From the IMG/VR virus record IMGVR_UViG_3300022555_000016: DNA of 64,000 nucleotides; one strand, given 5' to 3'. Positions 11,347-59,744 of the stretch are shown piece by piece (positions within the stretch are counted from its first letter, which is position 1; the number at the start of each line of letters is the position of its first letter). A program made the translations under genes and the position numbers. Source of the DNA: an uncultured virus (IMG/VR IMGVR_UViG_3300022555_000016). Its lineage: Duplodnaviria > Heunggongvirae > Uroviricota > Caudoviricetes. A model generated the notes under the pieces. It was not told the DNA's origin. It worked only from the letters and a program-made list of their open reading frames with translations, and did not search any database.

Positions 11347-11760
11347 ATGCGCTTAGAGAATCCGTTGAAGACGTACGATAACGTTGAGAACCGGGTGTTT
11401 TCCTGCCAGTTTCATGCGGTATTCTGTCCCAAGTACCGTAGGAAACTTCTGACCCCTCCTATAGCAGAATGTTTAACCAACTTCATTTTAAAGAAACAGA
11501 AGGCTATAAACTACAAGGTACTAGAGATTAACGTTCTAGTAGACCATGTTCACTTGGTACTCAGTATTGACCCGTCACACAGCATGCAGTCAATCATTGC
11601 CGAAATTAAGTATCAATCAAGTCCTATGTTAAGGAAAGAGTTTCCAGAGCTTAAAACCAAACTATCTACTGTTTGGAACCGGGCTTACTTTATCAGTACT
11701 GTTGGTAACTTGGATTCAATGGACATACCCAAGTGGCTTCAGAATCAGAAGAATATTTAA
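11347..11760 (+). CDS. tnpA: IS200/IS605 TnpA (Y1) homolog with the catalytic Tyr replaced by Trp
   Basis: FCPKYRRKLL, HUH motif DHVHL, WxRxYFISTVG. The YxxxQ helix reads KWLQNQ. Confidence 0.85.
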   Translation: MRLENPLKTYDNVENRVFSCQFHAVFCPKYRRKLLTPPIAECLTNFILKKQKAINYKVLEINVLVDHVHLVLSIDPSHSMQSIIAEIKYQSSPMLRKEFPELKTKLSTVWNRAYFISTVGNLDSMDIPKWLQNQKNI

Positions 11761-11773
11761 CGGGAGTTAAGTC

Positions 11774-21369: not shown

Positions 21370-21765
21370 TTAAGGCTTTGACAAAATGAAGTCGGCTAAG
21401 TCCTGATCAAATTTATTAACGTGTTTTTGTATCCAAGGACTGACGGAATCGTATAAATCTACGTCAGTTAAACAGCCACGCTTTATTTTGTTTCGTATAT
21501 CGGACAGTCTTCCTAAGGTGACAAGGTGATCGTTACGGTGGGAAAGTAGGTAACTATAACCGAGTCGTCTCGCAATTACTTCTTCGTGGACGAAATGGAT
21601 GTGAATAGCATCTATTAACGTCGCTACCTTCTTTTCAAGGGACTTCTCTACGAACTTGTCAGATTCTAGCAAACTGTTAATCAAGTTATAAATGTATTCG
21701 TGCTCTGTGTCTATTGACTTAACACCTACTAATTGTGGTTTGTTAACTGTGAATCTACCAGCCAT
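21370..21765 (-). CDS. Bacteriohemerythrin
   Basis: GVxxIDxEH, HFxxEE, HxxxH and HxxxxD di-iron ligand pattern. Confidence 0.85.
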   Translation of the reverse strand: MAGRFTVNKPQLVGVKSIDTEHEYIYNLINSLLESDKFVEKSLEKKVATLIDAIHIHFVHEEVIARRLGYSYLLSHRNDHLVTLGRLSDIRNKIKRGCLTDVDLYDSVSPWIQKHVNKFDQDLADFILSKP

Positions 21766-21792
21766 GACTCTGAATCCTAGCGACTATATAGC

Positions 21793-35364: not shown

Positions 35365-35781
35365 ATGCCTCTCTACAATACTCCGCCTAAAGTTTACAGC
35401 GTAACAGAAACTAGAACGTCAAGCTGTCAGTATGTAGTTTCTTTTTGTGTAAAGTACCGGCGTAAAGTTCTAACTTCACCAGTTAACACATTTCTAAGAG
35501 ACTTTATAATGAATAACCAGAAGGTAATAGGTTATAAAATTATCTCTCTGGACATATTTATTGACAACGTACAAATGGTTATAGAAGTTGAACCTAAAAT
35601 TGGGATTCATAAAGTTATAACAAATATCAAAGGGAACTCGACCCCTTTGCTAATGCGTAAATTCCCAGAGCTAAAAAGTCGTGTCAGCACTGTCTGGTGC
35701 AAAGCGTACTGGGTTTCCACACTCGGTAAAGTAAACACTTTTGATTTATTCTCTTGGCTTGAAACTCAACATAAGTCTTAA
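35365..35781 (+). CDS. tnpA: IS200/IS605 TnpA homolog lacking both the HUH motif and the catalytic Tyr
   Basis: FCVKYRRKVL and WxKAYWVSTLG are retained. HUH reads DNVQM and YxxxQ reads SWLETQ. Confidence 0.8.
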   Translation: MPLYNTPPKVYSVTETRTSSCQYVVSFCVKYRRKVLTSPVNTFLRDFIMNNQKVIGYKIISLDIFIDNVQMVIEVEPKIGIHKVITNIKGNSTPLLMRKFPELKSRVSTVWCKAYWVSTLGKVNTFDLFSWLETQHKS

Positions 35782-35805
35782 ACTCTTTTAGAAGGATTAG
35801 TAGTC

Positions 35806-43912: not shown

Positions 43913-44383
43913 TTACCGCTTGTGACCGCCCTTACGACCCTTACGGGCGTGGTGACGGGCATGCTTGCCATGCTTCCGAGCGTGATGCTTACCACCGGCC
44001 CGACCCTTGGCGTGTGCCTTCTTCTTACCCTTGGCAACCCGCTTCTTCTCGTTCTTGAACTTGCCAGCCATCTTACCACGATTGCTGTGCTTGCCCTTGG
44101 CACCCTTACCAATGGCCCCAGCCTTACGGAGAGCGGCCATGTGCTTACGGAAAGCTGCACCGCCAGCCGACTTCAACCACTTTGCCCGACCAAGAATCAT
44201 AGCCTTCCGCTGAGCGGGAGAAATCTTATGACCCTTACGCTTGCCCTTAGCGGCTGTACGCTTGGCGCGGAGCTTACCAGCCTTTACACGACGACCATGT
44301 AACGCCTTACCAGTCAACTTGCCACGACCGGCCTTGGCCCGACGCTTGTTAAGATGACGTACTGACTCTGCCTTCTTTGCCAT
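43913..44383 (-). CDS. Basic protamine-like protein
   Basis: K/R/G/H/A-rich, GHKISPAQRKAM, AAGGA RBS. Confidence 0.85.
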   Translation of the reverse strand: MAKKAESVRHLNKRRAKAGRGKLTGKALHGRRVKAGKLRAKRTAAKGKRKGHKISPAQRKAMILGRAKWLKSAGGAAFRKHMAALRKAGAIGKGAKGKHSNRGKMAGKFKNEKKRVAKGKKKAHAKGRAGGKHHARKHGKHARHHARKGRKGGHKR

Positions 44384-46217: not shown

Positions 46218-46628
46218 TTAACGCTTGTGACCGCCGTGACGGCCCTTACGGGCGTGATGACCACCCTTACGACCCTTGGCCTTGGCCCGAGCATAATGCG
46301 ACTTACGCTTTGCCTTAACTTTACCAGCCTTCTTCTCGTTCTTGAACTTGCCAGCCATCTTACCACGATTGCTGTGCTTACCTTTGGCACCCTTACCAAT
46401 GGCCCCAGCCTTACGGAGAGCGGCCATGTGCTTACGATACGCTGCACCACCAGCAGTAGCTAACCAACGCTTACGACCGGCGTCCATTGCCTTCCGCTGA
46501 GCGGGGGAAATCTTATGACCCTTACGAGCGTGGGCTGGCTTCTTGCCTTTAGCAACCCGCTTGGCCTTAGGAGCATGTGTTGCCTTAGCTTTAGCTTTGG
46601 CATAATGTGAAGTCTTACGCTTTGCCAT
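46218..46628 (-). CDS. Basic protamine-like protein, close paralog of 43913..44383
   Basis: Likely start ATG 46628 (MAKRKT). Shares a near-identical central DNA block with its paralog. Confidence 0.85.
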   Translation of the reverse strand: MAKRKTSHYAKAKAKATHAPKAKRVAKGKKPAHARKGHKISPAQRKAMDAGRKRWLATAGGAAYRKHMAALRKAGAIGKGAKGKHSNRGKMAGKFKNEKKAGKVKAKRKSHYARAKAKGRKGGHHARKGRHGGHKR

Positions 46629-46756: not shown

Positions 46757-47182
46757 CTACCGACGAGCGCGGCGCTTGTGACCATGCTTCCGGGCGTGAT
46801 GCTTGCCGCCCTTACGGCCCTTAGCGAACTTCCGGCTGCCCCGACCTTCAATCTTATGACCAGTCTTGGCATGCTTCTTACCGGTGTGAGCACCCTTTAC
46901 CTTAGAGGTAAACATGCCCTTACCCTTACCACGAGCGGAATGCTTACCCTTTGCGCCACGGCCAATGAGACCCTTCTTACGAAGGTCAGACATGTGCTTA
47001 GCCCAGAGCTTGCCTTCAGCCGACTTCAACCACTTTGCCCGACCAGCTTGCATGGCCTTTTTGTGCTCTGCACTGAGCTTATGACCCTTACGGCCGTGAG
47101 TGGTCTTCTTACCCTTAGCAACACGCTTCCGCTTAGCACCCTTAACAGCAGAATGTGCGCCAGCGCGATGAATCTTAGCCAT
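46757..47182 (-). CDS. Basic protamine-like protein with a NUMOD3-like helix
   Basis: GHKLSAEHKKAMQAG, KGRKGGKHH. Promoter motif at 47306-47313. Confidence 0.85.
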   Translation of the reverse strand: MAKIHRAGAHSAVKGAKRKRVAKGKKTTHGRKGHKLSAEHKKAMQAGRAKWLKSAEGKLWAKHMSDLRKKGLIGRGAKGKHSARGKGKGMFTSKVKGAHTGKKHAKTGHKIEGRGSRKFAKGRKGGKHHARKHGHKRRARR

Positions 47183-47457
47183 GATCTTAAGTCCTTCTGA
47201 AAGAGGATTAGATGATATTACAAAAAAGAAATTGATTAAGAGATGAGAGAAAATTTCTCAGGAAGTTAAGCTCCTTTACAAAAAACTTTTCTCACCCTTA
47301 TACTTAAAATTAGATTATTCCCAATTCAAAAAGCCTAAGCGAAAATAAAAATTTTAGTCAACTATATTAGGATACAAAGAAATAGGGCACAGCTTTTGGC
47401 TGCGCCCTTAGTTTCGTAGATTCTCGTTAAAGTGTTAAGTACAATAGCCAAGTTGTT

Positions 47458-47598
47458 ATAGTCACAGGTCTTATGTAAGTTTGTTAAGCTATTATAAGTC
47501 CTGTCTTTAGGCCACAAAGTACTGGAGACCTGGGATGTACTACTAGACACCCTTTACCTCGAGTGCATGCACCGGGCTATTAGTTAACCTTAAACCGT
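47458..47598 (-). ncRNA. Putative omegaRNA (reRNA) scaffold of TnpB copy 1
   Basis: 141 bp 3' of tnpB, identical to 57039..57179. Contains hairpins and CAGGTCT/AGACCTG complementarity. Confidence 0.75.
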
Positions 47599-49332
47599 TC
47601 AACCAACGTAGTTGTTGCTCCTAATTAACCGTGAGTCCTTCTGACTCTGAATCTTGAAAGGTGTGGTTAGAACCTTCTTGACCCAGTCTTGGTCAACGGG
47701 AGCTAAATTCATACGTGATTTGAACTTTCTAAGGACGTTTACCGAGGATTGAACGTCAGAGTGAACGTGAATCCCTTTAGCTGTGATGTACAGGCCCCTT
47801 CGAACCCGTGTACCACTGTAATGAGGACTAGGAGCACCCTTAACGTACTTAGGAGGGAGGTAATCTCTATCCATAGCAGAACCCTTACTAGTATGCGATT
47901 CATTCTGTAAGTGGACTGTAATCCCTACTGCTACGCACTTGTAGGTCAACATCTCCACGAACCGATTGAACGGGAGTCTAGTAAAGTTCTTCATACCCTT
48001 AGCAAACTGTTTCCAATCAATGTTCCTACCAATAACTAGGATTACGACACCATTCTCCACGAGCAGCTTGACTAGCGTGCTGGAAACGTTGTGGAGGTAG
48101 TGGTCCAGTCTATTTCTAAGCTTATTGTAGGCTGCTTGAATCCTCTTTGAAGAGTTCTGTGGGATTTTACTTGTTAGAATCTGACCCAACTCTTGGTCGT
48201 ACTCAGGAGGATCGGGGTAGAGGGCAGAATGAGTAGCAAAAGCTTGCTGAACCATCAAACCTAGCATAAGGTAGTTAAACGGGTTGGACTCAGGGTCTTT
48301 CAACTCCCTAAGACGTTTCCTCTTCAACTCTAGCTCTTCTTTAGCTTTAGTACGTTCGTCTATTAACTGACGTTCCCTAGCCGGTTTAGACCAGTAGAGG
48401 TCCCGTTTAAGCTCTTCTATCTGGTAGTAGGACCAAAGTAATAGAGACTTCAGAATCCAACCGTTAAAGGCTATAGGCTTTGGATTACCTTCTATTACCC
48501 CTGCGGCTGTAACGTTTACCCCTAAGTCAAAGCTTGCTATAGCTTGTAGTTCTTCTTGCTTAGCAGTCCAGTTACCTGTAATCTCTTCGTTGTAGACTGC
48601 TTCTACGTTGTAACCACCTACTATTGGGATGTATCTGACTTCAGTGATTCCAACGTCTCTTAGGACAGGTTTACCTTTGGAATCTTTCTTTATAGCTTGC
48701 TTACCCTTGGAGTCAGTAACAACTTGAGGTTGCATGTGGAGGGTGAAGGGTATTTCCTGTTTAAACTCTGGATTCCTAGGGCAAAGGGTGATGAATCCTT
48801 TGGGAGCAATAGACTTGGATAACCTAGCTCCTTTAACCTGTTTCTTATTGGAATCAACTACTTGACCTCCAGTCATGGTCTGGTAGGTAAACTTAACTGG
48901 TTTACGGCTGTCGGTCCTACGGATGTACTTATCACCCTTGAACCCAGGTGGTTGAGGGCAAGCCTTGTACTTCTTAGGGTGAGCTTTCTAGAGTTCCTTA
49001 CTTTTAGTCCACTCCCAGAAGTCAAACCAAGCAGCTTCGAAGGACTTCCAGTCGTCATGGAGCATTTTAACAGTAGCGTTAGCTACTTTGGTGGGTAACC
49101 GTTGGTACTCAGGAGTCTGTTTTAACAGCTTATCTAGCTCGGGTAGACTAGGAATCTTCTTCCTTTGGAAGCCTGGCTGTTTGTAGTTGTCCTGGTTGTA
49201 GTTCCAGATAGAAAGTAAGATGAAAAGACCTACGTGATAGAGTTTGGCTGACAAAAAGCAAGTAGAATCAACACCCTTGTACCAAGGGTGTTTGGGACCT
49301 ACAAACTGTTTTTGAACCCTGGTTTCTAACAT
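47599..49332 (-). pseudogene. tnpB: TnpB with a single in-frame TAG
   Basis: Same 1734-bp length as the intact copy. TAG at 48988-48990 where copy 2 has CAG (Gln). Confidence 0.9.
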
Positions 49333-49599
49333 AAGTAGAATCCAATTTAAAAAGAGTCTAAGAAAATCTTACAAACAAAATTAAGATTCACCTCGAGTCA
49401 GAATCAGAAAAAGATTCTTACAAGAAGATTAACGTTCTTATAGAAACTGAGTAAAGGTATTCAATACTTAACTTTCTTTCAACTAGCCGTCAAACAGGTG
49501 TAAAGGAGGCTAGATTTTTAGGAGGATTTTTGGACTACTGTATCTAAATCTTCTCTAGTGTACTTAACTTGAAAGTTACAAGGTCTAACCGAATCCAAG

Positions 49600-50760
49600 T
49601 TAAACAGCCAAGTATCCTGCCATTGTACCAACCATGTTAGCAGAGTTTAAATAGGCTTGGCGAATTGAGTTCATGGCTTGGGCACCGCTGAGACTGGTGT
49701 TGTTGGTTACACCAAGACTAATTCCTAATACACCCATACTGCTTTGACGAATGGTCAAGTTTTTGATCTTAGGTAAGTTGTCGTTGAGCCAACTGTCAAC
49801 TTTACTAAAGGCTCCTTCAAGAGCCGGGGTCCGGTCAACACTTAAACTAACCGATTGACCTGACAGTTCAAAGTTACTAACACCTTCGGCCAATAACTGA
49901 GCACTTAAACCTTCCCAAGCGGCGGCGTAAGTCAGAGCTATATTAAACTGATTAGGCATGTTACAAATGGTGTAATTGGTTAAACTAGGATTAGCCATGT
50001 TGATCCTGTCAATACCACGAAGCAACCAATGTACCAGATCAACATCAGTGTACTGTAACTGGTTAATTATGTCTTCATTACGAGCACGATCTATGAACCG
50101 CCGCAAGTCGTTCATAAACAACAAAACTTTAGCAGATATCACATACAAAAAATGAAACTCTTGTCTGTGTTCGCCACTACCTTTGTAATTCCACTGAATA
50201 ATGAACGGTCGATTACAAGAGTTGCCAGCAATCATCCTAGCAATAGGTGGGCTAGAAAAAGAGTATTTAACCTTGTCGTAATAGGTGGCAACCGGTTCTG
50301 GATTAACCAGCCCCGACAAATACACGTTACCCTGACCGTCTAGTACTTTAATACTAAGGTCAGTAATGTCTAGATTCTTAGGTAGTATGATATGGTCTCG
50401 GAAAGGATTGTTATCAAGGACTACCTTATCGTTCTCAATGTAACTATAGTCTTCCAAAACAGGAGATACGTTAAAGAACTCAACGTTAGTACGTTTCTGC
50501 TGTTTGTTAAAAATATGCCAAGTTAACGAGTACTTTTTCTCCTGTGGAAAAATTGGAGTAGATTCAGGCAACGTAACCGTGGCAAACCACCTAGAAGGTA
50601 CTTGGTAATCCTGTTGAGCAGCTCCTGATAAAACTAAAGCCCCTTCTGGAGTACGCATAGTATAAGTAGGTGGTTTAGTAGCTACAAAAGAATCTCCGTT
50701 CTGTTCCTTAAAATAAGTTTCAATGATAAAACTCGCCCCTGGTGATACACAACTAAGCAT
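49600..50760 (-). CDS. Putative virion neck / head-tail adaptor-like protein
   Basis: 386 aa. The C-terminal LRRFID...YTDxDL...IN..P region recalls adaptor proteins (weak). Confidence 0.4.
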   Translation of the reverse strand: MLSCVSPGASFIIETYFKEQNGDSFVATKPPTYTMRTPEGALVLSGAAQQDYQVPSRWFATVTLPESTPIFPQEKKYSLTWHIFNKQQKRTNVEFFNVSPVLEDYSYIENDKVVLDNNPFRDHIILPKNLDITDLSIKVLDGQGNVYLSGLVNPEPVATYYDKVKYSFSSPPIARMIAGNSCNRPFIIQWNYKGSGEHRQEFHFLYVISAKVLLFMNDLRRFIDRARNEDIINQLQYTDVDLVHWLLRGIDRINMANPSLTNYTICNMPNQFNIALTYAAAWEGLSAQLLAEGVSNFELSGQSVSLSVDRTPALEGAFSKVDSWLNDNLPKIKNLTIRQSSMGVLGISLGVTNNTSLSGAQAMNSIRQAYLNSANMVGTMAGYLAV

Positions 50761-50823
50761 CTTGGAAAGCCTTCTTTGGTGTTTGAATGGTTGGCACGGT
50801 TGGAACAGAACTAGTCTAGTTCA

Positions 50824-51930
50824 TTAACCCACTTTAGAATCTGCATCGTTGCAATTAGCCGCAGCAGCAACTTGTTGAGATTTCAAAATGCTCTTTACCC
50901 AAGAATAGTTGGATTTAGCTATTAGCCATTGGTAGGCTAGGCTCTCCGTCTTGAACTTACCTGCATTAACTAGATAGGCCGTTTTAACTTTAAAAGCAGG
51001 AGGCACTAAGGCTGAAATAGATTTGTCAAAGTGCTCTTGGCAGTAAGGCTTAAGCTCCAAAGAAGGTTTACCGCAGAAAAGATGCCGATTTAAATTGTCT
51101 GTACCGATAGGCCAACGACATTGATGCGGCACTAACTTACTTAAAATAACGTTTTCAAAACCACCTACTGAGTTACGCTTAGGGATAATGTTTAGCTTAC
51201 CCTGTGGCCTAGTTAGATTAAGCCTATTCACCTTACCAATAATCGCGTTCTTGGTAAAGCCTGTAGCTTCCACTATTTCTTTAATAGGGGCACCAGCAGT
51301 CCACAAGTTAGAGGCAATAGCAATAAGCTCATCGGTCCACACAAGCTTTTGAACTACGGGCGGTGGAATGTACGGAAGCTGCTGAAGATGCTGGTGTGCA
51401 GCACAGCATTCAACATAATCTTTATTAGTTATTGAGGTGTCAATAACTTGTAGGTCAGGTACTGATGTTGAAACAACTGGAGTATCTACTGTGTTGCTTA
51501 TATTGACTGGATCGCTGGGTGCAATTGGCGTAATTGATGCAATTAAGTCTATTGCTGCTGTGGCTGTTGTTGGTGTTGTGGGAACAACTGGCTCCTGGGC
51601 AGTAAAATCAAGTATAATTGGTAAAACTTCGGATACGGCAGGTACAGCTGATACATATAATACAGAGGGTAGTCCTAAAGCCTCAGCAGGAATCTCGTCC
51701 TCTACATAGGTAGATAGAGGTACTTCTTTAACCTTCTTAACTGCTGGAGCTTTAGGCTCAAACGGACAGTTAATCATTTTTAAAAGCTTTTTAAGAGTCT
51801 GGTGCTGAACACGAATAAAAAATGTCTTAAAAATCAGGTCTTGTAACTCTTTTCCTGAGGAAACAGTAGCACGTAAGGTAGGGAGAATGTCAATAAGCTC
51901 TTTAGTTATTTGCTTCTGCGTAAAGGTCAT
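50824..51930 (-). CDS. gcrA: GcrA cell-cycle regulator homolog with a ~195-aa N-terminal extension
   Basis: WTDE...LW..G....EI....GFTKNAIIGKVNRLNL and CRWPIG...FCG......PYCQEH. Confidence 0.85.
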   Translation of the reverse strand: MTFTQKQITKELIDILPTLRATVSSGKELQDLIFKTFFIRVQHQTLKKLLKMINCPFEPKAPAVKKVKEVPLSTYVEDEIPAEALGLPSVLYVSAVPAVSEVLPIILDFTAQEPVVPTTPTTATAAIDLIASITPIAPSDPVNISNTVDTPVVSTSVPDLQVIDTSITNKDYVECCAAHQHLQQLPYIPPPVVQKLVWTDELIAIASNLWTAGAPIKEIVEATGFTKNAIIGKVNRLNLTRPQGKLNIIPKRNSVGGFENVILSKLVPHQCRWPIGTDNLNRHLFCGKPSLELKPYCQEHFDKSISALVPPAFKVKTAYLVNAGKFKTESLAYQWLIAKSNYSWVKSILKSQQVAAAANCNDADSKVG

Positions 51931-51971
51931 GATTCTCTCATTAAGTTAAGTGTTAAGAAACTGCGTATTAC

Positions 51972-52035
51972 GCTAATCGCGTGTCAAGCCATGCTAATCG
52001 CGTGTCAAGCCATGCTAATCGCGTGTCAAGCCATG
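51972..52035. repeat. 21-bp tandem repeat, three copies (GCTAATCGCGTGTCAAGCCAT)
   Basis: Identical units at 51972, 51993 and 52014. Each reads TTGACA on the minus strand. Confidence 0.95.
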
Positions 52036-52733
52036 TTGAACGATTTAAGCAAAGGCTCAAGGTTACCTGGGGAGTCGATACCAATAGTGAAAGAGCCCGG
52101 CTCGTAGAACCGATTTAACACTGTTATCTTAGACTCTTGATCAAACGAAACTACGATCAGAAACTGATCAAAAGTAAAACCGTTCTTGTCAGATACTTTT
52201 CCAATGTTGAGGTAGGAGGTGTACTGATCGTTTCCTGAGTACAAAGTGGAAACTATTGGCTTAATATTTGTTAATTTTCCAACTTCTTTTATGGTGTTAG
52301 TTAGAATAGTAGAGTAGTTGTCAGGAAGAATAATAGCTGCAGTACTCTTACAGAATCCAGATTCCATAGCTTCGGTGAGAGTACATAAAGTGTCTTCAAC
52401 TACCACTTTTGCTTTTACAACAATGTGTTCAGATTGTGGAAACTCGTTAGTTAACTGAATATGAGCATGCATAACGGCATCGTAACAAGCGCGTAGTGTT
52501 CCCATACTAGACGTTATTTTAATCAATTGGTGTTCTTTATTGGCTTTAGACTTTAACCTCTCTACAGCTTTAGACTTGGTGTTACTTGAAGTAGAAGACG
52601 TTATTTCCACTGTTGACCTTATTAGGTCTAAACCGTTAAACACCCGGTTAATAGCTGCTACTTCATTCTTAACAGTAGTTAACATCTTCCTAAGCTCAGT
52701 TACTGAAGAATAATGTCTGATATCAATGTTCAC
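52026..52733 (-). CDS. Hypothetical protein
   Basis: 235 aa, AAGGA RBS. Confidence 0.7.
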   Translation of the reverse strand: MNIDIRHYSSVTELRKMLTTVKNEVAAINRVFNGLDLIRSTVEITSSTSSNTKSKAVERLKSKANKEHQLIKITSSMGTLRACYDAVMHAHIQLTNEFPQSEHIVVKAKVVVEDTLCTLTEAMESGFCKSTAAIILPDNYSTILTNTIKEVGKLTNIKPIVSTLYSGNDQYTSYLNIGKVSDKNGFTFDQFLIVVSFDQESKITVLNRFYEPGSFTIGIDSPGNLEPLLKSFNMA

Positions 52734-52782
52734 TTGGTGCGTCCTTATTTATTGAGAAGCTGTAGCAACCACCGAAGGGCAA

Positions 52783-54459
52783 TTAAATGTTACCTAACGA
52801 CTCGGAAGGGATGTCAGTAAAGTCATCTAAAATTAGAATTTCGTTTCGGCGATACATTCCGTTTCTAAACCAAGCTTCTTGAGCCGAGGAGTCCGATGGA
52901 TTGTTAACTTTACTTACATTAGGAGAAGCTGGTTGCATTGCAAAAGGTTTGGAATAAGCGTCGACTCCTAAAGCAGATTCCATCAGCGTTATGTTAAAAT
53001 TAGTATCCACGGCGAACCAGTCAACTTGGAAAAAGTTAGTCGGAGGGCTAACGAATCCAACGGAATTGAGGTAGTTACTGGACAATTCTTTAATTGTCCC
53101 ACTGACTTTCTTAGGTTTTAACTTAGGAGGATTTCTGAATTTATGATTACTGTACTGACGATAGTGCTCTTCCCCAGCATAAACGTGTTGCCCTTGAATT
53201 TGCTCTAGTCCAGTAAACGCCATGTTAACAGTACGGTTAAATCCAAGCCTTAGGTTCTGGAGGACTTCGTAGCTCTGCACCGCCCTTACCGAGACGTTCC
53301 AACTCAATATCTGACGCTTAGCTGTCATAGCATCTGGGACAGAGGTTGCCTTCCAAAGATCATCATATTTGTTACAATAGATAACGTCGCCTGACTTAAC
53401 TTCGGCCAGTTTAGAAGACAGTACCATTGTGGTATCCACCATGTGTCCAACTTTGTCTAACGACTCGGTCGGAGTAATAGGAGGCATTTGTCCCTTGTTC
53501 CATTCGGCGTACTGGATAACAAACTCTAGGTGAGTGAATACCGCTAAGCCTTCAGTTAATGCTACTGAAGGACGAACACGGATATCCAACACTGTAGGAA
53601 TTCCTATTCTACTATTTAAAAAGTCGTTTGTCAAGTCAAACCATTGTAACGTGTTAGAAATTCTTACTTCAGCCTTTAGGCCAGACGTAGGCTTAGTATT
53701 GCTACGAATATTGATGTTATACGACTTAATCCAAAAAGTAGGAAGTTCAATACCTAACCACGTCACCGAATTGGACGGATTAAACTCAGAAGTGAACGAA
53801 TACGGGTAGGTTTCACGATCTAAGATAAAACCGTTCATCACAAATTTGTAAAAACCTGAAGCTTCAAGTAGAAACCGGCTACCGTTATGCAAGGAATAGT
53901 TGTCTCTCCATCCGGTGGACATGCAGATACCGCACACCGTAGATGAGCCTCCAAACGCCCCTAATGCACTATCGTCCCCTAAAGAGAGCAAGGCTAAAAT
54001 ATCATTGATCTCCTGGTCGCCCTCTGGTAAAATACCTAAGTTAACCTGATCATCGATTGTCCGTGTAGGTTCTATAGTATTGTCGTTAGTACGAGGTTTG
54101 TAGATACTCTCGTTGAGCGGAAAACTCTTTTGTATCTTACCAGGAGTCCTCATAATAAACTTAGGAGTAGGCCCGTCCTGTCTATCTTGGTCACTTAAAG
54201 ATTCGTCAGACGGATCGGTGTCTCTATTAACGTATAATGGGTCCTTCTTCTTCAGATTGGCGCAAGTGCATGGGTAGCCACGAGCTTCTGCTTTCTGAAA
54301 AATGACAATCTCCACGCTGTCAACCTGTAAAGAAGTCTCTAATTGACTGTTCGCTCTACTGACCAAATGGTCCAATCTTTTCTGTGCTCTGTGCTGAGTT
54401 CCAAAATTATGTTGTGCTTGCTGTTTGACGTAAGAGTTGTTTCCGAATAATCTGGTCAT
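52783..54459 (-). CDS. Putative head-completion / neck protein with a Cys cluster
   Basis: CTC...CGICMSTG motif. Promoter motif at 54513-54521. Confidence 0.4.
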   Translation of the reverse strand: MTRLFGNNSYVKQQAQHNFGTQHRAQKRLDHLVSRANSQLETSLQVDSVEIVIFQKAEARGYPCTCANLKKKDPLYVNRDTDPSDESLSDQDRQDGPTPKFIMRTPGKIQKSFPLNESIYKPRTNDNTIEPTRTIDDQVNLGILPEGDQEINDILALLSLGDDSALGAFGGSSTVCGICMSTGWRDNYSLHNGSRFLLEASGFYKFVMNGFILDRETYPYSFTSEFNPSNSVTWLGIELPTFWIKSYNINIRSNTKPTSGLKAEVRISNTLQWFDLTNDFLNSRIGIPTVLDIRVRPSVALTEGLAVFTHLEFVIQYAEWNKGQMPPITPTESLDKVGHMVDTTMVLSSKLAEVKSGDVIYCNKYDDLWKATSVPDAMTAKRQILSWNVSVRAVQSYEVLQNLRLGFNRTVNMAFTGLEQIQGQHVYAGEEHYRQYSNHKFRNPPKLKPKKVSGTIKELSSNYLNSVGFVSPPTNFFQVDWFAVDTNFNITLMESALGVDAYSKPFAMQPASPNVSKVNNPSDSSAQEAWFRNGMYRRNEILILDDFTDIPSESLGNI

Positions 54460-54769
54460 TACTGTGACTTTCTATGGTATTTTGCCAATAATTGGGTCAT
54501 TTTATCTATGTAAAAATTAGGCCGTTAAATGACCCCACTTCTATATACAATGGGTCAATTTTTATAGTAAATAGGGAGAAATTTCTCATGAAAATAATTT
54601 ATTTCAGGGTAATTCTTCTATCCAATTTTTATCGTAAACCTAAAAAATTAAGGTTGACTTTTTTACTGAGTTCATATATAATAACAAAATTAACACCTCC
54701 TTACAATAAAATTAAATTATCTAATAAGTTCCAATTAGCTGCAAGCCTATTAACCTGAAAGTTATTACC

Positions 54770-55399
54770 GTGATCAAAGCCTCTAAGAAGGTTAAACGAG
54801 ACAAACCAAGAGCCTTAGCGACTCGAAAGACGCCTGCGTTTATAGTTCATACTACAATCGGATTCGATCCAGGCTCGAAGAACTTTGGTGTCAGTGCTAC
54901 TAGAATGAAGTGGGCCAAAAAGGACAATAAACTGATAGATATTGAGTATATTTACACTGGGAAGTTACACTATCCAATACAATCGTTAAAGACTGAAGTT
55001 GTCCAAGAGAACCTAGCTAAATTCCTACAAGAGATACGTGACCTTGTCAATAAGTACAAGCCTGATGAGATCGTAATTGAAAGATTCCAGATTCGCGGTA
55101 AGGCGTCAGCGTTTCTTGGAACTATCATTGAACTAGTCAATGTTATGATTGGATCAGTGCTTACAATAGCCTATAGTAAGGGATTAGTAGTAACTCTCCT
55201 CCTAGCAGTCACTTGGAAATCGGCAGTTAACCGTGCAAAGCTAGATTTCAAAAAGCATCTTTATCCAATAAACAGAAAAAATAATCACGTCATAGACGCT
55301 GCGTTAATGACGCTATACACTACAGATACTCTAGACGCTTTGCACGATCCTAAATTCTGGATACCGTTCGCCGACACGTTAAGCCAAGTCAAAGGCTAA
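54770..55399 (+). CDS. RuvC-like Holliday junction resolvase
   Basis: IGFDPGSKNFG, IVIERFQ, WK, HVIDA acidic triad. Confidence 0.75.
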   Translation: MIKASKKVKRDKPRALATRKTPAFIVHTTIGFDPGSKNFGVSATRMKWAKKDNKLIDIEYIYTGKLHYPIQSLKTEVVQENLAKFLQEIRDLVNKYKPDEIVIERFQIRGKASAFLGTIIELVNVMIGSVLTIAYSKGLVVTLLLAVTWKSAVNRAKLDFKKHLYPINRKNNHVIDAALMTLYTTDTLDALHDPKFWIPFADTLSQVKG

Positions 55400-55404
55400 G
55401 AGCC

Positions 55405-55650
55405 ATGAGAAATAATCAAGTAATAATAACTATAGTTGAACTGTGGGACAAAGCTAAAGAGTTTCATATCCTTGACGACTACCTAACTAGGTGGGACGAT
55501 CTGGCTGAAGTCCACGTCAAAAGTTACCTCGGTTTAGCTATTGAGTTCTTTGACAAGACCCACAAGGGCAAAGACATAGTTATCGATACCACTCTAGTAA
55601 CACCTGAGATACAGGCTAAACTATCCAATGTTCCAATTCTCTTGAACTAG
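55405..55650 (+). CDS. Hypothetical protein
   Basis: 81 aa in a plus-strand operon. Confidence 0.6.
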   Translation: MRNNQVIITIVELWDKAKEFHILDDYLTRWDDLAEVHVKSYLGLAIEFFDKTHKGKDIVIDTTLVTPEIQAKLSNVPILLN

Positions 55651-55665
55651 AAGGATGCATTTAAA

Positions 55666-56277
55666 ATGACGCAAGCACCTGTACTTGAAAAGCAAGCTGA
55701 TCCTATTAAGATTATCCTGGCAGAAGTTAAGGACGAACTGGCTAAATCGTCTAACCTCCGTAAGCTGCCAGTGTACAACAAGGAACCGGCCGAGGTTATC
55801 GGTGAAGTAGTAATAGAGTTTAGTACAGATACCTTCAAAAACGTCAACTTAGATAAGCGTGCTACAGTTGAAGCGGCGTATGTTGAGGTATTGAGCTATC
55901 TGTTTCAAGAAGATCAGCTTTTGGAAACCTTCGCGAAGGTATTACCTGAGCATTTAACATTACACTCGGTTACTGCTAATACTAATCCTAGTAAACTGTT
56001 CCTGTCAAAGAACGGTATGGATTCCTTAGTAAACAACAAGAAGTTCCAAGAGTTTTACCAACCTGTCACTAAAGCTGATGTGTTGTTTAACGGTGTTCTA
56101 GGTAAGCTGTTTGACAACATTGACCTGCACACTGACAGGTACAGGTTACCGGAATGGCAACTAGCTACTAGCAACTTGTTAGTATCCGATTTCAATCAGT
56201 ACCGTGTATCTCCGATTAACATTGTTGAGAAGCTAAAAACTATTGAACACACGGTTAAGGTTTATCGGTTGAAATAG
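55666..56277 (+). CDS. Divergent major-capsid-like paralog (tentative)
   Basis: QPVTKADVLFNGVLGKLF..IDLHTDRYRxPE recalls the C-terminal half of HK97-fold jumbo-phage capsid proteins. Confidence 0.4.
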   Translation: MTQAPVLEKQADPIKIILAEVKDELAKSSNLRKLPVYNKEPAEVIGEVVIEFSTDTFKNVNLDKRATVEAAYVEVLSYLFQEDQLLETFAKVLPEHLTLHSVTANTNPSKLFLSKNGMDSLVNNKKFQEFYQPVTKADVLFNGVLGKLFDNIDLHTDRYRLPEWQLATSNLLVSDFNQYRVSPINIVEKLKTIEHTVKVYRLK

Positions 56278-56307
56278 TAACCACTTGCAAAAAGAAAGGC
56301 TTTTAAA

Positions 56308-57039
56308 ATGGCTAACGATCCAGGGAACATTAAGCAGCTAGGTCAAGATATCACAGTTGACTTAGCAAAGAACTCAATGTTGCGAAAGGTCTTAGAAAAT
56401 GTACCTGTAAACCAGGGTAGCATTCCTAAGTTTCCTACTAACGGCCATTGGGTAGATAAGCAGGTTATAACTTACGAGGACAGTGGCGATTCTAAGTGGC
56501 ACCGCTTAACCTGTAAAGATTTGTACTTATGTCCACCAGAATCCTATCTAAAGTTTGTAGAGAGTCGTAGCAATAAGAACCTCGTTAAGCTTCTTGCTAC
56601 TAAAGAAAATGAACTGTGGGAAGAAGGTTGTTCTGAAGCCGTTAAAGCTACTGGCAATATAGTAAACGTTAAAGAGTTTTACCCTGCGGTAACTTCAGCT
56701 TTGACTTTGTTGGAAGCTAAAGGTTTTGATATAGGTGCAGTTAATGTTGCGTTAGATGACTTTTTCTGCGGACACCCTTCACTGACAGGGTTGATTATTA
56801 ACCAATTTTTCCAGTTCAAGGGTCGTAAGGTCCTATTAAACTTCGTCAATAAACCCCTTGCTAATAATGTTACCATTAAGAGTTCTTGGATAACCCCGGT
56901 ACGTGATCATGGGTTCTACTCTAGTAGAGGTGTAGAAGTCATTAACGTTGATAACAGTACGGACAACGATAACGTTTTTGTATCTGAAGTCATGGCAGTA
57001 ACTATTAACCAAGGCAGTGTTGTTCAGTTAGCCTTCTGA
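56308..57039 (+). CDS. Divergent major-capsid-like paralog (tentative)
   Basis: LRKVL....NQGSIPKF, PPExY, HGxYSxRG, SEVMAVTI recall HK97-fold capsid motifs. Confidence 0.45.
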   Translation: MANDPGNIKQLGQDITVDLAKNSMLRKVLENVPVNQGSIPKFPTNGHWVDKQVITYEDSGDSKWHRLTCKDLYLCPPESYLKFVESRSNKNLVKLLATKENELWEEGCSEAVKATGNIVNVKEFYPAVTSALTLLEAKGFDIGAVNVALDDFFCGHPSLTGLIINQFFQFKGRKVLLNFVNKPLANNVTIKSSWITPVRDHGFYSSRGVEVINVDNSTDNDNVFVSEVMAVTINQGSVVQLAF

Positions 57040-57179
57040 TAGTCACAGGTCTTATGTAAGTTTGTTAAGCTATTATAAGTCCTGTCTTTAGGCCACAAAG
57101 TACTGGAGACCTGGGATGTACTACTAGACACCCTTTACCTCGAGTGCATGCACCGGGCTATTAGTTAACCTTAAACCGT
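57039..57179 (-). ncRNA. Putative omegaRNA (reRNA) scaffold of TnpB copy 2
   Basis: Identical to 47458..47598. Identity stops abruptly after CCTGTGACTAT. Confidence 0.75.
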
Positions 57180-58913
57180 TCAACCAACGTAGTTGTTGCT
57201 CCTAATTAACCGTGAGTCCTTCTGAGTCTGAATCTTGAAAGGTGTTGTTAAAACCTTCTTGACCCACTTCTGGTCAACCGTAGGCAATCCCATACGTACT
57301 TTGAACTTTCTAAGGACGTTTACCGAGGATTGAACGTCAGAGTGAACGTGAATCCCTTTAGCTGTGATATACAAGCCTCGTCGGACCCGTGTACCACTGT
57401 AATGAGGACTAGGAGCACCCTTAACGTACTTAGGAGGTAAATAGTCACCATCCATAGCAGAACCCTTACTAGTGTGAGATTCATCTTGTAAGTGGACCTG
57501 AATCCCTACTGCTACGCACTTGTAGGTCAACATCTCCACGAACCGATTGAACGGGAGTCTAGTAAAGTTCTTCATACCCTTAGCAAACTGTTTCCAGTCT
57601 AGATTCCTACCGATAACTAGGATTACGACACCATTCTCCACGAGCAGCTTAACTAGCGTGCTGGAAACGTTGTGGAGGTAGTGGTCCAGTCTATTTCTAA
57701 GCTTATTGTAAGCGGCTTGAATCTTCTTTGAGGAGTTCTGTGGTACTTTAGAAGTTAGAATCTGACTCAACTCCTGATCATACTCAGGAGGCTCGGGATA
57801 GAGGGCAGAATGAGTAGCAAAAGCTTGCTGAACCATCAAACCTAGCATAAGGTAGTTAAACGGGTTGGACTCAGGGTCTTTCAACTCCCTAAGACGTTTC
57901 CGCTTCAACTCTAGTTCTTCTTTAGCCTTAGTCCGTTCGTCTATTAACTGACGTTCCCTAGCCGGTTTAGACCAGTAGAGGTCCCGTTTAAGCTCTTCTA
58001 TCTGGTAGTAGGACCAGAGTAACAGAGACTTCAGAATCCAACCGTTGAAGGCTATTGGCTTGGGATTACCTTCGATTACCCCAGCGGCTGTAACGTTTAA
58101 CCCTAGGTCAAAGCTTGCTATGGCTTGTAGTTCTTCCTGCTTAGCAGTCCAGTTACCTGTAATCTCTTCGTTGTAGACTACTTCTACGTTGTAACCACCT
58201 ACTATTGGTATGTAGCGTACTTCAGTGATTCCAACGTCTCTTAGGACAGGTTTACCCCTGGAATCCTTCTTTATAGCTTGTTTACCGTTAGCGTCGGTAA
58301 CAACTTGAGGTTGCATGTGGAGGGTGAAGGGTATTTCCTGTTTAAACTCTGGATTCCTAGGGCAAAGGGCGATGATTCCTTTGGGAGCAATAGACTTGGA
58401 TAACCTAGCTCCTTTGACTTGTTTCTTGTTAAAGTCTTTAATCTGACCACCTGACATGGTCTGGTAGGTAAACTTAACCGGCTTACGGCTGTCGGTCCTA
58501 CGGATGTAATTATCACCCTTGAATCCAGGAGGTTGAGGACAAGCCTTGTACTTTTTAGGAAACTGTTTCTGGAGTTCCTTGCGCTTAGCCCACTCCCAAA
58601 AGTCAAACCAAGCCGCTTCGAAGGCTTTCCAGTCGTCTAGGAGCATTTTAACAGTAGCGTTAGCAATCCTAGTTGGTAACCGTTGATACTCTAGAGTTGG
58701 TTTTAACAGCTTATCTAGCTCGGATAGACTAGGAATCCTACGCCGTTGGAAGCCTAGTTGCTTGTAGTTGTCCTGGTTGTAGTTCCAGATAGAAAGTAAA
58801 AGGTAGAGACCTACGTGATAGAGTTTGGCTGACCAAAAGCAAGTACGGTCAATATTATCGTACCAAGGGTGTTTTGGGCCTACAAACTGTTTTTGAACCC
58901 TAGTTTCTAGCAT
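57180..58913 (-). CDS. tnpB: TnpB RNA-guided nuclease with rearranged RuvC-II and no Cys Zn finger
   Basis: ASFDLG (RuvC-I), IGRNxDWKQ, ESHTSK, HSDVQSSVNV (RuvC-III). 577 aa. Confidence 0.9.
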   Translation of the reverse strand: MLETRVQKQFVGPKHPWYDNIDRTCFWSAKLYHVGLYLLLSIWNYNQDNYKQLGFQRRRIPSLSELDKLLKPTLEYQRLPTRIANATVKMLLDDWKAFEAAWFDFWEWAKRKELQKQFPKKYKACPQPPGFKGDNYIRRTDSRKPVKFTYQTMSGGQIKDFNKKQVKGARLSKSIAPKGIIALCPRNPEFKQEIPFTLHMQPQVVTDANGKQAIKKDSRGKPVLRDVGITEVRYIPIVGGYNVEVVYNEEITGNWTAKQEELQAIASFDLGLNVTAAGVIEGNPKPIAFNGWILKSLLLWSYYQIEELKRDLYWSKPARERQLIDERTKAKEELELKRKRLRELKDPESNPFNYLMLGLMVQQAFATHSALYPEPPEYDQELSQILTSKVPQNSSKKIQAAYNKLRNRLDHYLHNVSSTLVKLLVENGVVILVIGRNLDWKQFAKGMKNFTRLPFNRFVEMLTYKCVAVGIQVHLQDESHTSKGSAMDGDYLPPKYVKGAPSPHYSGTRVRRGLYITAKGIHVHSDVQSSVNVLRKFKVRMGLPTVDQKWVKKVLTTPFKIQTQKDSRLIRSNNYVG

Positions 58914-59081
58914 CTCGTGAGTCCAGTTTTAAAAAGAGTCTGGGAGAAAGTTTACAAATAAAATTAAGATTCGATCTAGAAGTGAATCAGAAAAATATTC
59001 TAGATCGAATCTTACAAGAAGATTAACATTTTTATAGAAACTGAGTAAAGGTATTCAATATTAAGCTTAAGAGGATCGCAA

Positions 59082-59744
59082 GTGACTCAATCGGCACCAA
59101 CTGTCCAAACGACCCAAGACCTTACTAGTCCTACTACTCCCACGGTCCAAACTAAACCGCCAAAGGATCGGTACTACACTTGTCCTACGTCTAGTGTTGA
59201 GTACAAAAATAGCTGCCCTATTCTCAACTGTCCGGCTAACATTGCTCACGTAGAAGATTCTCGTCCAAGCGGTTGCTTCTACAACTTCTTAAGTGGTAAG
59301 CAAACAGTGAGTAAATACGAAGTAGCCTACGCTTTCGGTATTCCGGTAAAAGACGTGGATTACTACGATAGTGTAGGTAGGGCTGGAATTCAGACAATTA
59401 CACTGTTCTATGAGATGGTTAAACAGGTTAGGCAGTGGACTTCTAATCACAACATGTACTGCTCATCCTGTGGTTGCTTACGGACTACTCCTGGTGACTG
59501 TATTAACCACATTAAGTGTAACGAACGGTTACATCTGGCAAATAAACTGTTGAAGTTGTACCCGTTCAACATTGAAGAGTTTGAGTTAACTCACCAAGAT
59601 GTGTTCAAGCTACTAGCTAACCGTAAACGTATCAACCGGATTCTAAAAAGTAAAAACGTTGAGGGCAACTTAACGTTTAGGCAAGTAACTAGTCTAGATA
59701 AACACACCTTTCAAATAATAGTGGAAATGAACGCTATTGTTTGA
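59082..59744 (+). CDS. Cys-rich Zn-binding protein
   Basis: CP...CPILNCP...GC and CSSCG...C....C clusters, GAGGA RBS. Confidence 0.65.
   Translation: MTQSAPTVQTTQDLTSPTTPTVQTKPPKDRYYTCPTSSVEYKNSCPILNCPANIAHVEDSRPSGCFYNFLSGKQTVSKYEVAYAFGIPVKDVDYYDSVGRAGIQTITLFYEMVKQVRQWTSNHNMYCSSCGCLRTTPGDCINHIKCNERLHLANKLLKLYPFNIEEFELTHQDVFKLLANRKRINRILKSKNVEGNLTFRQVTSLDKHTFQIIVEMNAIV

What the first reader, a model, noticed from the sequence alone, without database searches (positions are those of the whole stretch)
47458..59060. Transposase-less TnpB elements with invariant omegaRNA, readable guides and ATA at both junctions
Seen: two ~2.0-kb copies whose coding regions differ at many sites but whose 141-bp 3' non-coding regions are identical, ending CCTGTGACTAT. 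Predicted guides are AACAACTTGGCTATTG (copy 1) and CAGAAGGCTAACTGAA (copy 2). The upstream junctions read AAGTAT and TAATAT on the minus strand, so TAT is at both ends of both copies. Removing copy 2 restores a tight two-gene junction. Each tnpB has the phage motif CTTAATTTT about 45 bp upstream, and the only TnpAs in the window look dead. Known: TnpB cuts empty alleles using a right-end RNA and a TAM. Inference: TAM near ARTAT, with the element timed to phage infection and spreading as an RNA-guided homing endonuclease.
Basis: partly seen in the sequence, partly recalled or inferred. Interest (0 to 1): 0.75.

Follow-up and report, generated by a model that had tools for sequence, protein, structure and literature searches.

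The report
Transposase-less TnpB elements in a phage
A large freshwater phage carries several diverged copies of a selfish RNA-guided nuclease gene (tnpB) with its guide-RNA region but no working transposase; this is a fairly ordinary kind of element in an interesting setting, and whether it still moves was not shown.

Summary
Copy 1 (47458-49466) and copy 2 (57039-59060) lie on the minus strand. Each has a 577-codon tnpB and an identical 141-nt 3' region ending CCTGTGACTAT. The protein has TnpB Pfam domains, an invariant RuvC D-E-D triad and a Cas12f/TnpB fold.

- Copy 1 has an in-frame TAG at codon 115.
- A third intact copy lies about 58 kb away on the same roughly 130-kb metagenome contig.
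- A related phage contig carries an internally deleted mini-element and a TnpB only 42% identical.
- That distant relative keeps the same four-hairpin 3' RNA region and the same GACTAT end.

The copies differ at synonymous sites (dS 0.27-0.34) but are under purifying selection (dN/dS about 0.15). They are mosaics of each other. The copy 1 = copy 2 identity is therefore partly a gene-conversion tract; copy 3 has 4 changes in the 141 nt.

The left flank reads A-R-T-A-T in 4 of 4 close copies, and GGTAT and TGTGT in the two distant ones. All three Y1 TnpA-like genes seen lack the catalytic tyrosine.

No empty allele and no RNA data were found, so homing stays an inference. The concept itself is already in print. 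I rate it a new member of a known kind, of moderate interest.

The parts
47458..49466 (-). tnpB element copy 1 (2009 nt). The boundaries are ambiguous by the 3 nt ATA/TAT shared at both ends.
   Evidence: Alignments; BLAST.
47599..49332 (-). Copy 1 tnpB reading frame, 577 codons. It has one in-frame TAG at codon 115 (48988-48990) and is otherwise open.
   Evidence: dN/dS downstream of the TAG is 0.13-0.14 against the other copies. TAG is a normal stop in this phage.
47458..47598 (-). Copy 1 omega-RNA-like 3' region, 141 nt with four hairpins, ending GACTAT.
47442..47457 (-). Putative guide of copy 1 (AACAACTTGGCTATTG). This is flank DNA directly 3' of the right end.
   Evidence: Its role as a guide is inferred from the published TnpB model.
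49464..49468 (-). Candidate TAM of copy 1, AGTAT on the minus strand.
49377..49385 (-). CTTAATTTT promoter-like motif inside the left end of copy 1, 44 nt before the ATG.
57039..59060 (-). tnpB element copy 2 (2022 nt). It is inserted antisense between two plus-strand genes.
   Evidence: Loose ends of other copies fall exactly at 57039/57040 and 59060.
57180..58913 (-). Copy 2 tnpB, intact, 577 aa, with RuvC residues D269, E478 and D526.
   Evidence: Pfam OrfB_IS605 38 bits and Cas12f1-like TNB 30 bits, both above their cut-offs. Invariant D/E/D in 48 sequences. AlphaFold pLDDT 85, and Foldseek matches to Cas12f and TnpB structures.
57039..57179 (-). Copy 2 omega-RNA-like 3' region, 141 nt.
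57023..57038 (-). Putative guide of copy 2 (CAGAAGGCTAACTGAA). It is antisense to the last codons of ORF 56308-57039.
59058..59062 (-). Candidate TAM of copy 2, AATAT on the minus strand.
58960..58968 (-). CTTAATTTT promoter-like motif in the left end of copy 2, 46 nt before the ATG.
11347..11760 (+). Y1 TnpA-like ORF, 137 aa. HUH is present; the catalytic Tyr is replaced by Trp.
35365..35781 (+). Y1 TnpA-like ORF, 138 aa. HUH is lost (NVQ) and the catalytic Tyr is replaced by Trp.

Best explanation
These are non-autonomous, tnpB-only insertion elements of the IS1341 type within the IS200/IS605-IS607 world, living in a large freshwater phage.

Anatomy. Each element has a left end with a phage-type promoter-like motif, a 577-aa RuvC nuclease gene (TnpB), and a roughly 140-190-nt structured 3' region that ends at the right boundary (…CCTGYGACTAT).

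Proposed mechanism. The 3' region is most likely transcribed as an omega-RNA that reads through into about 16 nt of flanking DNA, which then serves as its guide. TnpB with this RNA would recognise a site made of the left-flank motif (about RTAT, ARTAT in the close copies) followed by the guide match. Such a site exists only in a genome lacking the insertion. Cutting it would provoke recombinational repair from a genome that has the element. That restores the element after excision or copies it into a co-infecting relative.

Shown here: the anatomy; the TnpB fold and catalytic triad; purifying selection on all three paralogues; conservation of the RNA region across a 42%-identical relative; recombination among copies; absence of a catalytic Tyr in the three TnpA-like genes seen.

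Inferred: transcription of the RNA; the TAM; cleavage; homing between phages.

My odds: about 0.9 that this is a TnpB/omega-RNA element, and about 0.4 that transposase-independent homing is its main means of persistence.
For: Protein:
- Pfam OrfB_IS605 and Cas12f1-like TNB, both above their cut-offs.
- 2224 relatives at E<=0.001 in the representative library.
- D269, E478 and D526 invariant in 48 aligned sequences.
- Model pLDDT 85.1 with Foldseek matches to AsCas12f (E 1.4e-13), ISFba1 TnpB (8e-11) and ISDra2 TnpB (1.3e-9) over about 540-590 alignment columns.

Selection:
- dS 0.27-0.34 and dN/dS 0.15-0.16 for all three pairs of copies.
- The 141-nt non-coding region has 0 differences (copy 1 vs 2) and 4 differences (copy 3).

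RNA:
- Independent folds of this region and of the 3' region of the 42%-identical L004 element give the same order of four hairpins followed by GACUAU.
- A covariance model built only from the three close copies finds the L004 right end over model positions 1-141 at 32.7 bits, E about 1e-6, ending at GCGACTAT.
- 5 of 43 RNAalifold pairs show double changes.

Boundaries:
- Four independent insertions share TAT|TGAATACC on the left and GACTA(T/C) on the right.
- Contig loose ends in two runs fall exactly at 57039/57040 and 59060.

No transposase:
- There is none inside the elements.
- The three Y1-like ORFs have W, W and F at the Tyr column, where 119 of 119 database homologues have Y.

Recombination and decay:
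- Mosaic site patterns among the copies.
- A mini-element with an internal deletion, L003, as expected for decaying selfish elements.
Against: - No empty allele was found: no joint skipping 57039-59060 in 4 runs (contigs only).
- The filled junctions of copy 2 are bridged in runs of two further studies: X6 record 12 across 57039 and X4 record 8 across 59060. The insertion therefore looks fixed.
- Copy 1 carries a nonsense codon.
- Single-sequence folding energies are not better than shuffles for the close copies (z +0.6 to +1.0). L004 gives z -1.9.
- Covariation rests on only two lineages.
- The identity of copies 1 and 2 can be explained by a conversion tract.
- No conserved left-end hairpin was found.
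- NCBIfam guided_TnpB scores 91.5, under its cut-off of 100, for copy 2; L004 scores 129.8.
- The profile search of PDB sequences found nothing at E<=0.01.
Confidence: 0.6

Rival explanations
1. Ordinary trans-mobilised IS200/IS605- or IS607-type elements. An active TnpA, either a Y1 or a serine recombinase, moves them. It would be encoded by the host or in the unseen part of the phage genome. TnpB would only perform the classic 'restorative' homing after excision.
For: - Four different intergenic insertion sites share a short left-flank motif, and the right end carries a subterminal hairpin 8-10 nt from its tip. This is what TnpA-type targeting gives.
- The same trinucleotide at both junctions is also what a serine recombinase crossover would leave (from my knowledge of IS607, not tested here).
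- Only 64 kb plus about 27 kb of flanks of a contig of 129.5 kb was seen. One of the window's proteins is on record on a 208-kb contig.
Against: - None of the 3 TnpA-like genes seen has the catalytic Tyr.
- No resolvase-type hit appeared among the 32 window ORFs and 58 locus ORFs scanned with Pfam.
- No relative of the TnpB or of the RNA core was found in one genome for each of about 186,000 prokaryote species. A host reservoir was therefore not seen.
- No conserved left-end hairpin was found.
Confidence: 0.3
2. The nucleases are kept because they help the phage. They would cut co-infecting relatives that lack the insertions (marker exclusion, inter-phage competition), so selection acts at the level of the phage and not only of the element.
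For: - Three paralogues are kept under purifying selection at dS about 0.3 within one genome.
- Phage promoter-like motifs lie in the left ends.
- The family was found only on phage-like contigs in the collections searched.
Against: - One copy has a stop codon, and a relative has decayed to a mini-element. Both are typical of selfish elements after fixation.
- No target-bearing competitor genome was found.
- Mechanistically this cannot be told apart from homing with the data in hand.
Confidence: 0.1
3. Inert relics: duplicated dead elements whose similarity reflects recent copying, with no current nuclease or RNA activity.
For: - Copy 1 has a nonsense codon.
- The insertions appear fixed.
- Folding energies are not significant.
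Against: - dN/dS is about 0.15 at dS about 0.3.
- The catalytic triad is invariant.
- The RNA region is conserved in a relative whose protein is only 42% identical.
- Two of the three copies are intact over 577 codons.
Confidence: 0.07

Closest known systems
IS1341-type (tnpB-only) members of the IS200/IS605 family, with the TnpB/omega-RNA (OMEGA) system as described for ISDra2
   Same: - A single tnpB gene.
- A structured RNA region at the 3' end that runs to the right boundary.
- A short conserved motif next to the left end.
- No target duplication beyond a shared trinucleotide.
- The RuvC D-E-D triad and the TnpB/Cas12f fold.
- The grouping into IS200, IS605 and IS1341 is as stated in PMC13565253 (passages seen).
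   Different: - The protein is long: 577-610 aa in this clade, against about 400 aa for most hits.
- Only its last 190 or so residues match other TnpBs by sequence.
- There are no cysteines in the TNB stretch of the alignment (my reading).
- No left-end hairpin was detected.
- The elements live in a phage and carry a phage-type promoter-like motif.
Transposon 'non-restorative homing' by TnpB (concept in the review PMC13565253, which cites spread of IS605 in a plasmid population without TnpA)
   Same: The nuclease cuts the orthologous empty site in a homologous replicon, and repair copies the element in. The review's Table 1 lists co-infected phages or plasmids as targets (passages seen).
   Different: Here it is only inferred from anatomy. 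No empty site, RNA or cleavage was observed.
tnpB genes of cultured phages, for example cyanophage A-1(L) (bioRxiv 10.64898/2026.02.14.705889) and the phage records hit
   Same: These are also tnpB genes inside phage genomes. The A-1(L) copy is induced during infection according to passages of that preprint.
   Different: - The A-1(L) copy is identical to five host copies, implying recent exchange.
- The present family has no relative in the prokaryote genomes searched.
- It has three old paralogues in one phage.
- The best phage-record matches cover only 15-31% of the protein at under 43% identity.
Free-standing homing endonuclease genes of T4-like phages (Seg, Mob)
   Same: They sit in intergenic positions between conserved phage genes, and their presumed spread is by double-strand break repair during co-infection (background from PMC13565253).
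   Different: Recognition here would be by a guide RNA plus a TAM, not by the protein. The self allele would be protected by the insertion itself.

Membership tests
TnpB (RNA-guided RuvC nuclease of OMEGA systems) | OrfB_IS605 (RuvC) and TNB/Zn-ribbon domains detectable by curated models | tested here: met
   PF01385 38.0 bits (cut-off 30.5) and PF07282 30.0 bits (cut-off 26.3). NCBIfam guided_TnpB scores 91.5, below its cut-off of 100, for copy 2, but 129.8 for the relative L004.
TnpB (RNA-guided RuvC nuclease of OMEGA systems) | Intact RuvC catalytic D-E-D | tested here: met
   D269, E478 and D526 are invariant in 5 close sequences and in 48 wider sequences. That these are the catalytic residues is by position in the motifs, from my reading.
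TnpB (RNA-guided RuvC nuclease of OMEGA systems) | TnpB/Cas12f-like fold over the whole protein | tested here: met
   Model pLDDT 85.1, pTM 0.78. Foldseek: 8j3r_A E 1.4e-13, 8iaz_A 8.2e-11, 8h1j_A 1.3e-9, with target-normalised TM about 0.6.
TnpB (RNA-guided RuvC nuclease of OMEGA systems) | Conserved structured RNA region at the 3' end of the gene, ending at the right boundary and followed by a variable guide | tested here: met
   - 0-4 changes in 141 nt against dS of about 0.3.
- The same four-hairpin order in a 42%-identical relative.
- The covariance model hits L004 at E about 1e-6.
- The flanks diverge immediately after GACTA(T/C) in 5 elements.
This shows sequence anatomy only.
TnpB (RNA-guided RuvC nuclease of OMEGA systems) | Expression of the omega-RNA, and TAM- and guide-dependent DNA cleavage | not testable with these tools
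   No RNA run holds the stretch.
IS200/IS605 family element | Y1 (HUH) TnpA in the element or active in the genome | tested here: not met
   There is no TnpA inside any element. The three Y1-like ORFs seen have W, W and F at the catalytic Tyr column. Part of the genome was not seen.
IS200/IS605 family element | Subterminal hairpins at both ends | tested here: inconclusive
   Right end: a 9-10-bp stem lies 8-10 nt from the tip in both subfamilies, with different sequences. Left end: no conserved hairpin, with z-scores from -1.3 to +0.5 in 5 elements.
IS200/IS605 family element | Insertion 3' of a short specific motif, without target duplication | tested here: met
   The left flanks read AGTAT, AATAT, AGTAT, AGTAT, GGTAT and TGTGT in 6 elements. 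The right end reads CTAT or CTAC. Without an empty site, the shared TAT cannot be assigned to the element or to the flank.
IS607 family element | Serine recombinase TnpA | tested here: not met
   No resolvase-type Pfam hit appeared among the 32 window ORFs and 58 locus ORFs scanned. Not all ORFs, and not the whole genome, were scanned.
Homing endonuclease (functional class) | Presence/absence polymorphism at the insertion site, with the empty site carrying the recognition sequence | tested here: not met
   No joint across 57039-59060 was seen in 4 runs (contigs only). No related phage with the flanking genes was found in viral contigs. Absence in contigs is weak evidence.

The most novel reading that the evidence does not exclude
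A phage-restricted clade of long TnpB nucleases persists with no transposase at all. It would be expressed from phage-type promoters and would use its right-end RNA to cut insertion-free alleles of co-infecting relatives. It would therefore act as an RNA-guided gene drive in phage populations, with gene conversion among paralogues keeping the RNA modules alike. In that case the Tyr-less TnpA-like genes next to nuclease genes in the same genome could be a second, protein-guided class of homing cassette derived from IS200.
Probability: 0.3. Interest if true: 0.7.

Novelty: new member of a known kind. Interest (0 to 1): 0.42.

Why it matters
TnpB homing has been shown in bacteria for elements that also have a TnpA. 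Spread into co-infecting phages or plasmids without TnpA is discussed in print mainly as a possibility (PMC13565253, passages seen).

This phage offers a natural test case:
- readable guides and reconstructable empty sites;
- three old paralogues under selection;
- one fresh nonsense allele;
- one mini-derivative.

It also adds a compact but unusually long TnpB clade (577-610 aa), with a defined RNA scaffold and a candidate RTAT TAM. That may interest people who mine such nucleases.

If the elements prove inactive or are simply trans-mobilised, the finding is routine annotation.

Tried and rejected
- Genome-wide TAG recoding as the explanation of copy 1's TAG: rejected. Under TAG=Q, neighbouring genes fuse across ordinary TAG stops, for example 21370-22908, and the large genes do not change. 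The only tRNA in the window is Cys.
- A conserved stop at codon 115 shared with the 114-aa database protein P0006: rejected. P0006 is the truncated ORF of the internally deleted mini-element L003, and the match of lengths is a coincidence.
- Empty alleles: no joint across copy 2 in runs X4, X6, X7 and X8 (contigs only). No relatives of the flanking proteins 56308-57039 and 49600-50760 in viral contigs. The one site where a related phage could have served as an empty allele (L003 against window 1-180) falls on the window's terminal tandem repeat.
- RNA evidence: no RNA holder was listed for the stretch.
- Known RNA families: Rfam gives only the tRNA at gathering score, and one chance-level miRNA hit (E 0.32) in copy 2.
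- Other targets of the two guides in the window: none beyond their own flanks at up to 3 mismatches, apart from two 3-mismatch hits for guide 1.
- Relatives in phage records by DNA: none. In viral contigs by protein or by alignment: none. In prokaryote genomes by alignment or by the RNA core pattern: none.
- Whole-genome look-ups were not possible: no genome is held for the window or for the contig.
- PDB by sequence profile: no hit at E<=0.01. The fold search was needed instead.
- Sigma-70-type promoters and terminators in the elements: not above shuffles.
- Shared ends between the three TnpA-like cassettes: none found by BLAST.
- Earlier notes of this scan: nothing on this genome or sequence.
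- Literature: two full-text searches listed no paper that shows TnpB homing between phages. This covers only the library searched.


Full report
**What is in the sequence**

On the minus strand there are two copies of a roughly 2.0-kb unit: copy 1 at 47458-49466 and copy 2 at 57039-59060. BLAST gives 90.4% identity.

Copy 2 holds an intact 577-codon ORF (57180-58913). Copy 1 holds the same frame (47599-49332) with a single in-frame TAG at codon 115. Copy 2, copy 3 and the database protein P0001 have CAG/Gln there.

TAG is an ordinary stop in this phage. Reading it as Gln fuses neighbouring genes and leaves the large genes unchanged. The only tRNA in the window is Cys.

The 141 nt after the stop codon are identical in the two copies and end CCTGTGACTAT. 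Identity extends 47 nt into the ORF.

**The protein**

- Pfam finds OrfB_IS605 and the Cas12f1-like TNB domain, both above their cut-offs.
- A full HMMER pass over 1.84 billion representatives finds 2224 relatives at E<=0.001. Only four of them cover most of the length: P0002 at 63%, P0004 at 42%, P0005 at 41%, and the fragment P0012. Most other listed hits match only residues from about 380 to 540.
- D269, E478 and D526 are invariant in 48 aligned sequences.
- An AlphaFold model (pLDDT 85.1) matches Cas12f and TnpB ternary complexes over about 540-590 alignment columns: 8j3r_A E 1.4e-13, 8iaz_A 8.2e-11, 8h1j_A 1.3e-9.
- A PDB sequence-profile search found nothing, and NCBIfam's guided_TnpB model scores just under its cut-off.

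This is therefore a divergent, long clade of TnpB.

**More copies outside the window**

A scan of metagenome contigs placed the window on a contig of about 129.5 kb. That contig holds a third, intact copy about 58 kb away (L002, 91.7% identical to copy 2).

A second phage-like contig of 89 kb carries two related elements:
- L003, a mini-element. Its left end and the first 113 codons are joined directly to the last 50 or so nt of the right end.
- L004, a 584-aa TnpB only 42% identical.

A third contig carries L005, which is 89% identical to L004 and is cut by the contig end.

The loose ends seen when contigs of four sequencing runs were laid on copy 2 fall exactly at 57039/57040 and 59060. The flanks that can be read match copy 3 and the mini-element. 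The mixed consensus at 57039 in X4 (agreement 0.63) is probably copy 1 plus copy 3. Depth inside the element in run X4 is about 2-3.5 times that of the flanks.

**The ends**

The left junctions on the tnpB strand are:

| Element | Left junction |
|---|---|
| Copy 2 | TTAA\|TAT TGAATACC |
| Copy 1 | TAAG\|TAT TGAATACC |
| Copy 3 | CTAG\|TAT TGAATACC |
| Mini-element (L003) | AGAG\|TAT TGAATACC |
| L005 | GAGG\|TAT TGAATACG |
| L004 | AGTG\|TGT TGAATACG |

Only R-T-R-T is common to all six.

The right ends read GACTAT in copies 1-3 and in L004, and GACTAC in the mini-element. Without an empty site, the shared TAT cannot be assigned to the element or to the flank.

If one ATA is kept, removing copy 2 leaves the TGA of ORF 56308-57039. 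Then come 23 nt with AAGAGGA, then the GTG of ORF 59082-59744. The 'tight junction' claim holds.

**The RNA region**

Synonymous divergence between the three paralogues is 0.27-0.34, with dN/dS 0.15-0.16. This includes the part of copy 1 downstream of its TAG. Against that background the 141 non-coding nt have 0 differences (copy 1 vs 2) and 4 differences (copy 3).

The distant L004 element keeps long blocks of this region, including GAGGTAARGGGTGYCTWGTAGTRCATCC and GTGGCCT, and the terminal GCGACTAT. Folding the two regions separately gives the same series of four hairpins. The last stem is 9-10 bp, built from different sequences, and sits 8-10 nt from the tip.

RNAalifold finds 5 of 43 pairs with double changes. 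A covariance model built from the three close copies alone recovers the L004 right end end-to-end at E about 1e-6, and finds no further copies in 138.5 kb.

Caveats:
- Single-sequence energies are not better than shuffles for the close copies.
- Only two lineages are available for covariation.
- Rfam has no matching family.

**The 'invariance' is partly recombination**

Site patterns among the three copies are clustered in blocks where only copy 1, only copy 2 or only copy 3 differs. In the last 190 or so nt only copy 3 differs. P0001, from another assembly, is copy 3-like with a copy 1-like patch.

The copies therefore exchange segments. The perfect identity of copies 1 and 2 at the 3' end is best read as a conversion tract lying on top of real constraint.

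**Transposase**

None of the elements contains a transposase. The window has two Y1 TnpA-like ORFs (11347-11760 and 35365-35781), and L002 has a third.

Aligned to IS608 TnpA, the first has Trp at the Tyr127 position. The three carry W, W and F there, and the second also lacks HUH. In an alignment of 121 sequences, all 119 database homologues have Tyr at that column.

Each of these genes is followed by a nuclease-like ORF: treble-clef/CapR 'HNH' in the window, endonuclease VII in L002. No resolvase-type hit appeared among the 90 ORFs scanned. About half or more of the genome was not seen.

**Promoter-like motif**

CTTAATTTT occurs 10 times, all on the minus strand, against 1.72 expected. It occurs 12 times on the gene strand, and not on the other strand, in loci L001-L003; three of these sites overlap the window's own.

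The longer form ATCT(T)AATTTT occurs 8 times in the window. Six of those sites are intergenic on their own strand and lie 42-133 nt before an ORF of at least 100 aa. These include both tnpB genes and the first TnpA-like gene. L004 lacks the segment that carries the motif, and L005 has a variant.

That this is a promoter, and that it times expression, is inference.

**Population data**

The stretch is held by lake and freshwater metagenome runs of three studies. Contigs of runs from two further studies bridge the filled copy 2 junctions: X6 record 12 across 57039 and X4 record 8 across 59060. No contig joins across the element. Contigs drop rare variants, so this is weak evidence that the insertion is fixed.

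**Comparison with what is known**

- tnpB-only elements (the IS1341 type) and the division into IS200, IS605 and IS1341 are textbook. I saw this in passages of PMC13565253.
- TnpB acting as a homing nuclease at vacant sites is stated in the abstract starts of PMC10690162 and PMC10055086 (search listing only).
- The idea that the element could be copied into co-infecting phages or plasmids without TnpA ('non-restorative homing') is in PMC13565253 (passages seen).
- tnpB in phages is known. In cyanophage A-1(L) it is identical to host copies and induced on infection (passages of 10.64898/2026.02.14.705889).
- Two searches listed no paper showing such homing between phages.

**Verdict**

The identification as TnpB/omega-RNA elements is well supported. 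The proposed homing lifestyle is reasonable, already conceptualised in print, and untested here.

What is new is modest: a phage-restricted long TnpB clade with a defined RNA scaffold, three old paralogues under selection that recombine with each other, and a genome in which every TnpA-like gene seen has lost its nucleophile.

Noticed in passing
window 11347-13309 (+), window 35365-38064 (+), and L002:2704-4987: There are three cassettes. Each has a Y1 TnpA-like gene lacking the catalytic Tyr (W, W, F; the 119 database homologues all have Y). Each is followed by a nuclease-like ORF: treble-clef DUF4379/CapR, called 'HNH endonuclease' by PHROGs, in the window, and endonuclease VII domains in L002. 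The two window cassettes lie on the strand opposite to their neighbours. They may be IS200-derived free-standing homing cassettes.
   Followed up: partly
window 1-185: A perfect tandem array of a 29-nt unit, 6.4 copies, 100% identical, runs to the first base of the window, directly after the stop of ORF 180-3905. By my arithmetic, the matching metagenome contig starts 59 nt inside the window. I suspect an assembly artefact at a contig end.
   Followed up: partly
window 51972-52035: A perfect 21-nt x 3.0 tandem repeat (GCTAATCGCGTGTCAAGCCAT) lies around the intergenic gap between ORF 50824-51930 (GcrA-like domain) and ORF 52026-52733, overlapping the start of the latter.
   Followed up: no
window, both strands; for example 11299 (+), and 42121, 43206 and 47315 (-): The motif AATCT(T)AATTTT recurs 42-133 nt upstream of ORFs on their own strand. 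It is a candidate phage promoter and is also present in the left ends of the tnpB elements.
   Followed up: partly
window 44042-44239, 46329-46570 and 47017-47136: Direct repeat families (72-95% identity) lie among the small minus-strand ORFs just upstream of copy 1. This suggests a set of paralogous small genes.
   Followed up: no
window 58935-59035: Contigs in runs X4 and X6 skip 101 nt inside the left end of copy 2, with only 25 nt on the shorter side. It may be a length variant of the left end in another copy. The left ends also differ by an 11-nt indel between copies 1 and 2.
   Followed up: no
L002:1-1992: A ribonucleotide reductase large-subunit ORF with a LAGLIDADG domain at the N-terminus of the stretch seen (it runs off the locus end), probably an intein or homing endonuclease. 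This genome is rich in selfish nuclease genes.
   Followed up: no
L005:9865-10001 compared with L004 and copy 3: The L005 element has an L004-type tnpB but a left end like that of copy 3, including a variant of the promoter-like motif. L004 lacks that 65 or so nt segment. This suggests modular exchange of left ends between the two subfamilies.
   Followed up: partly
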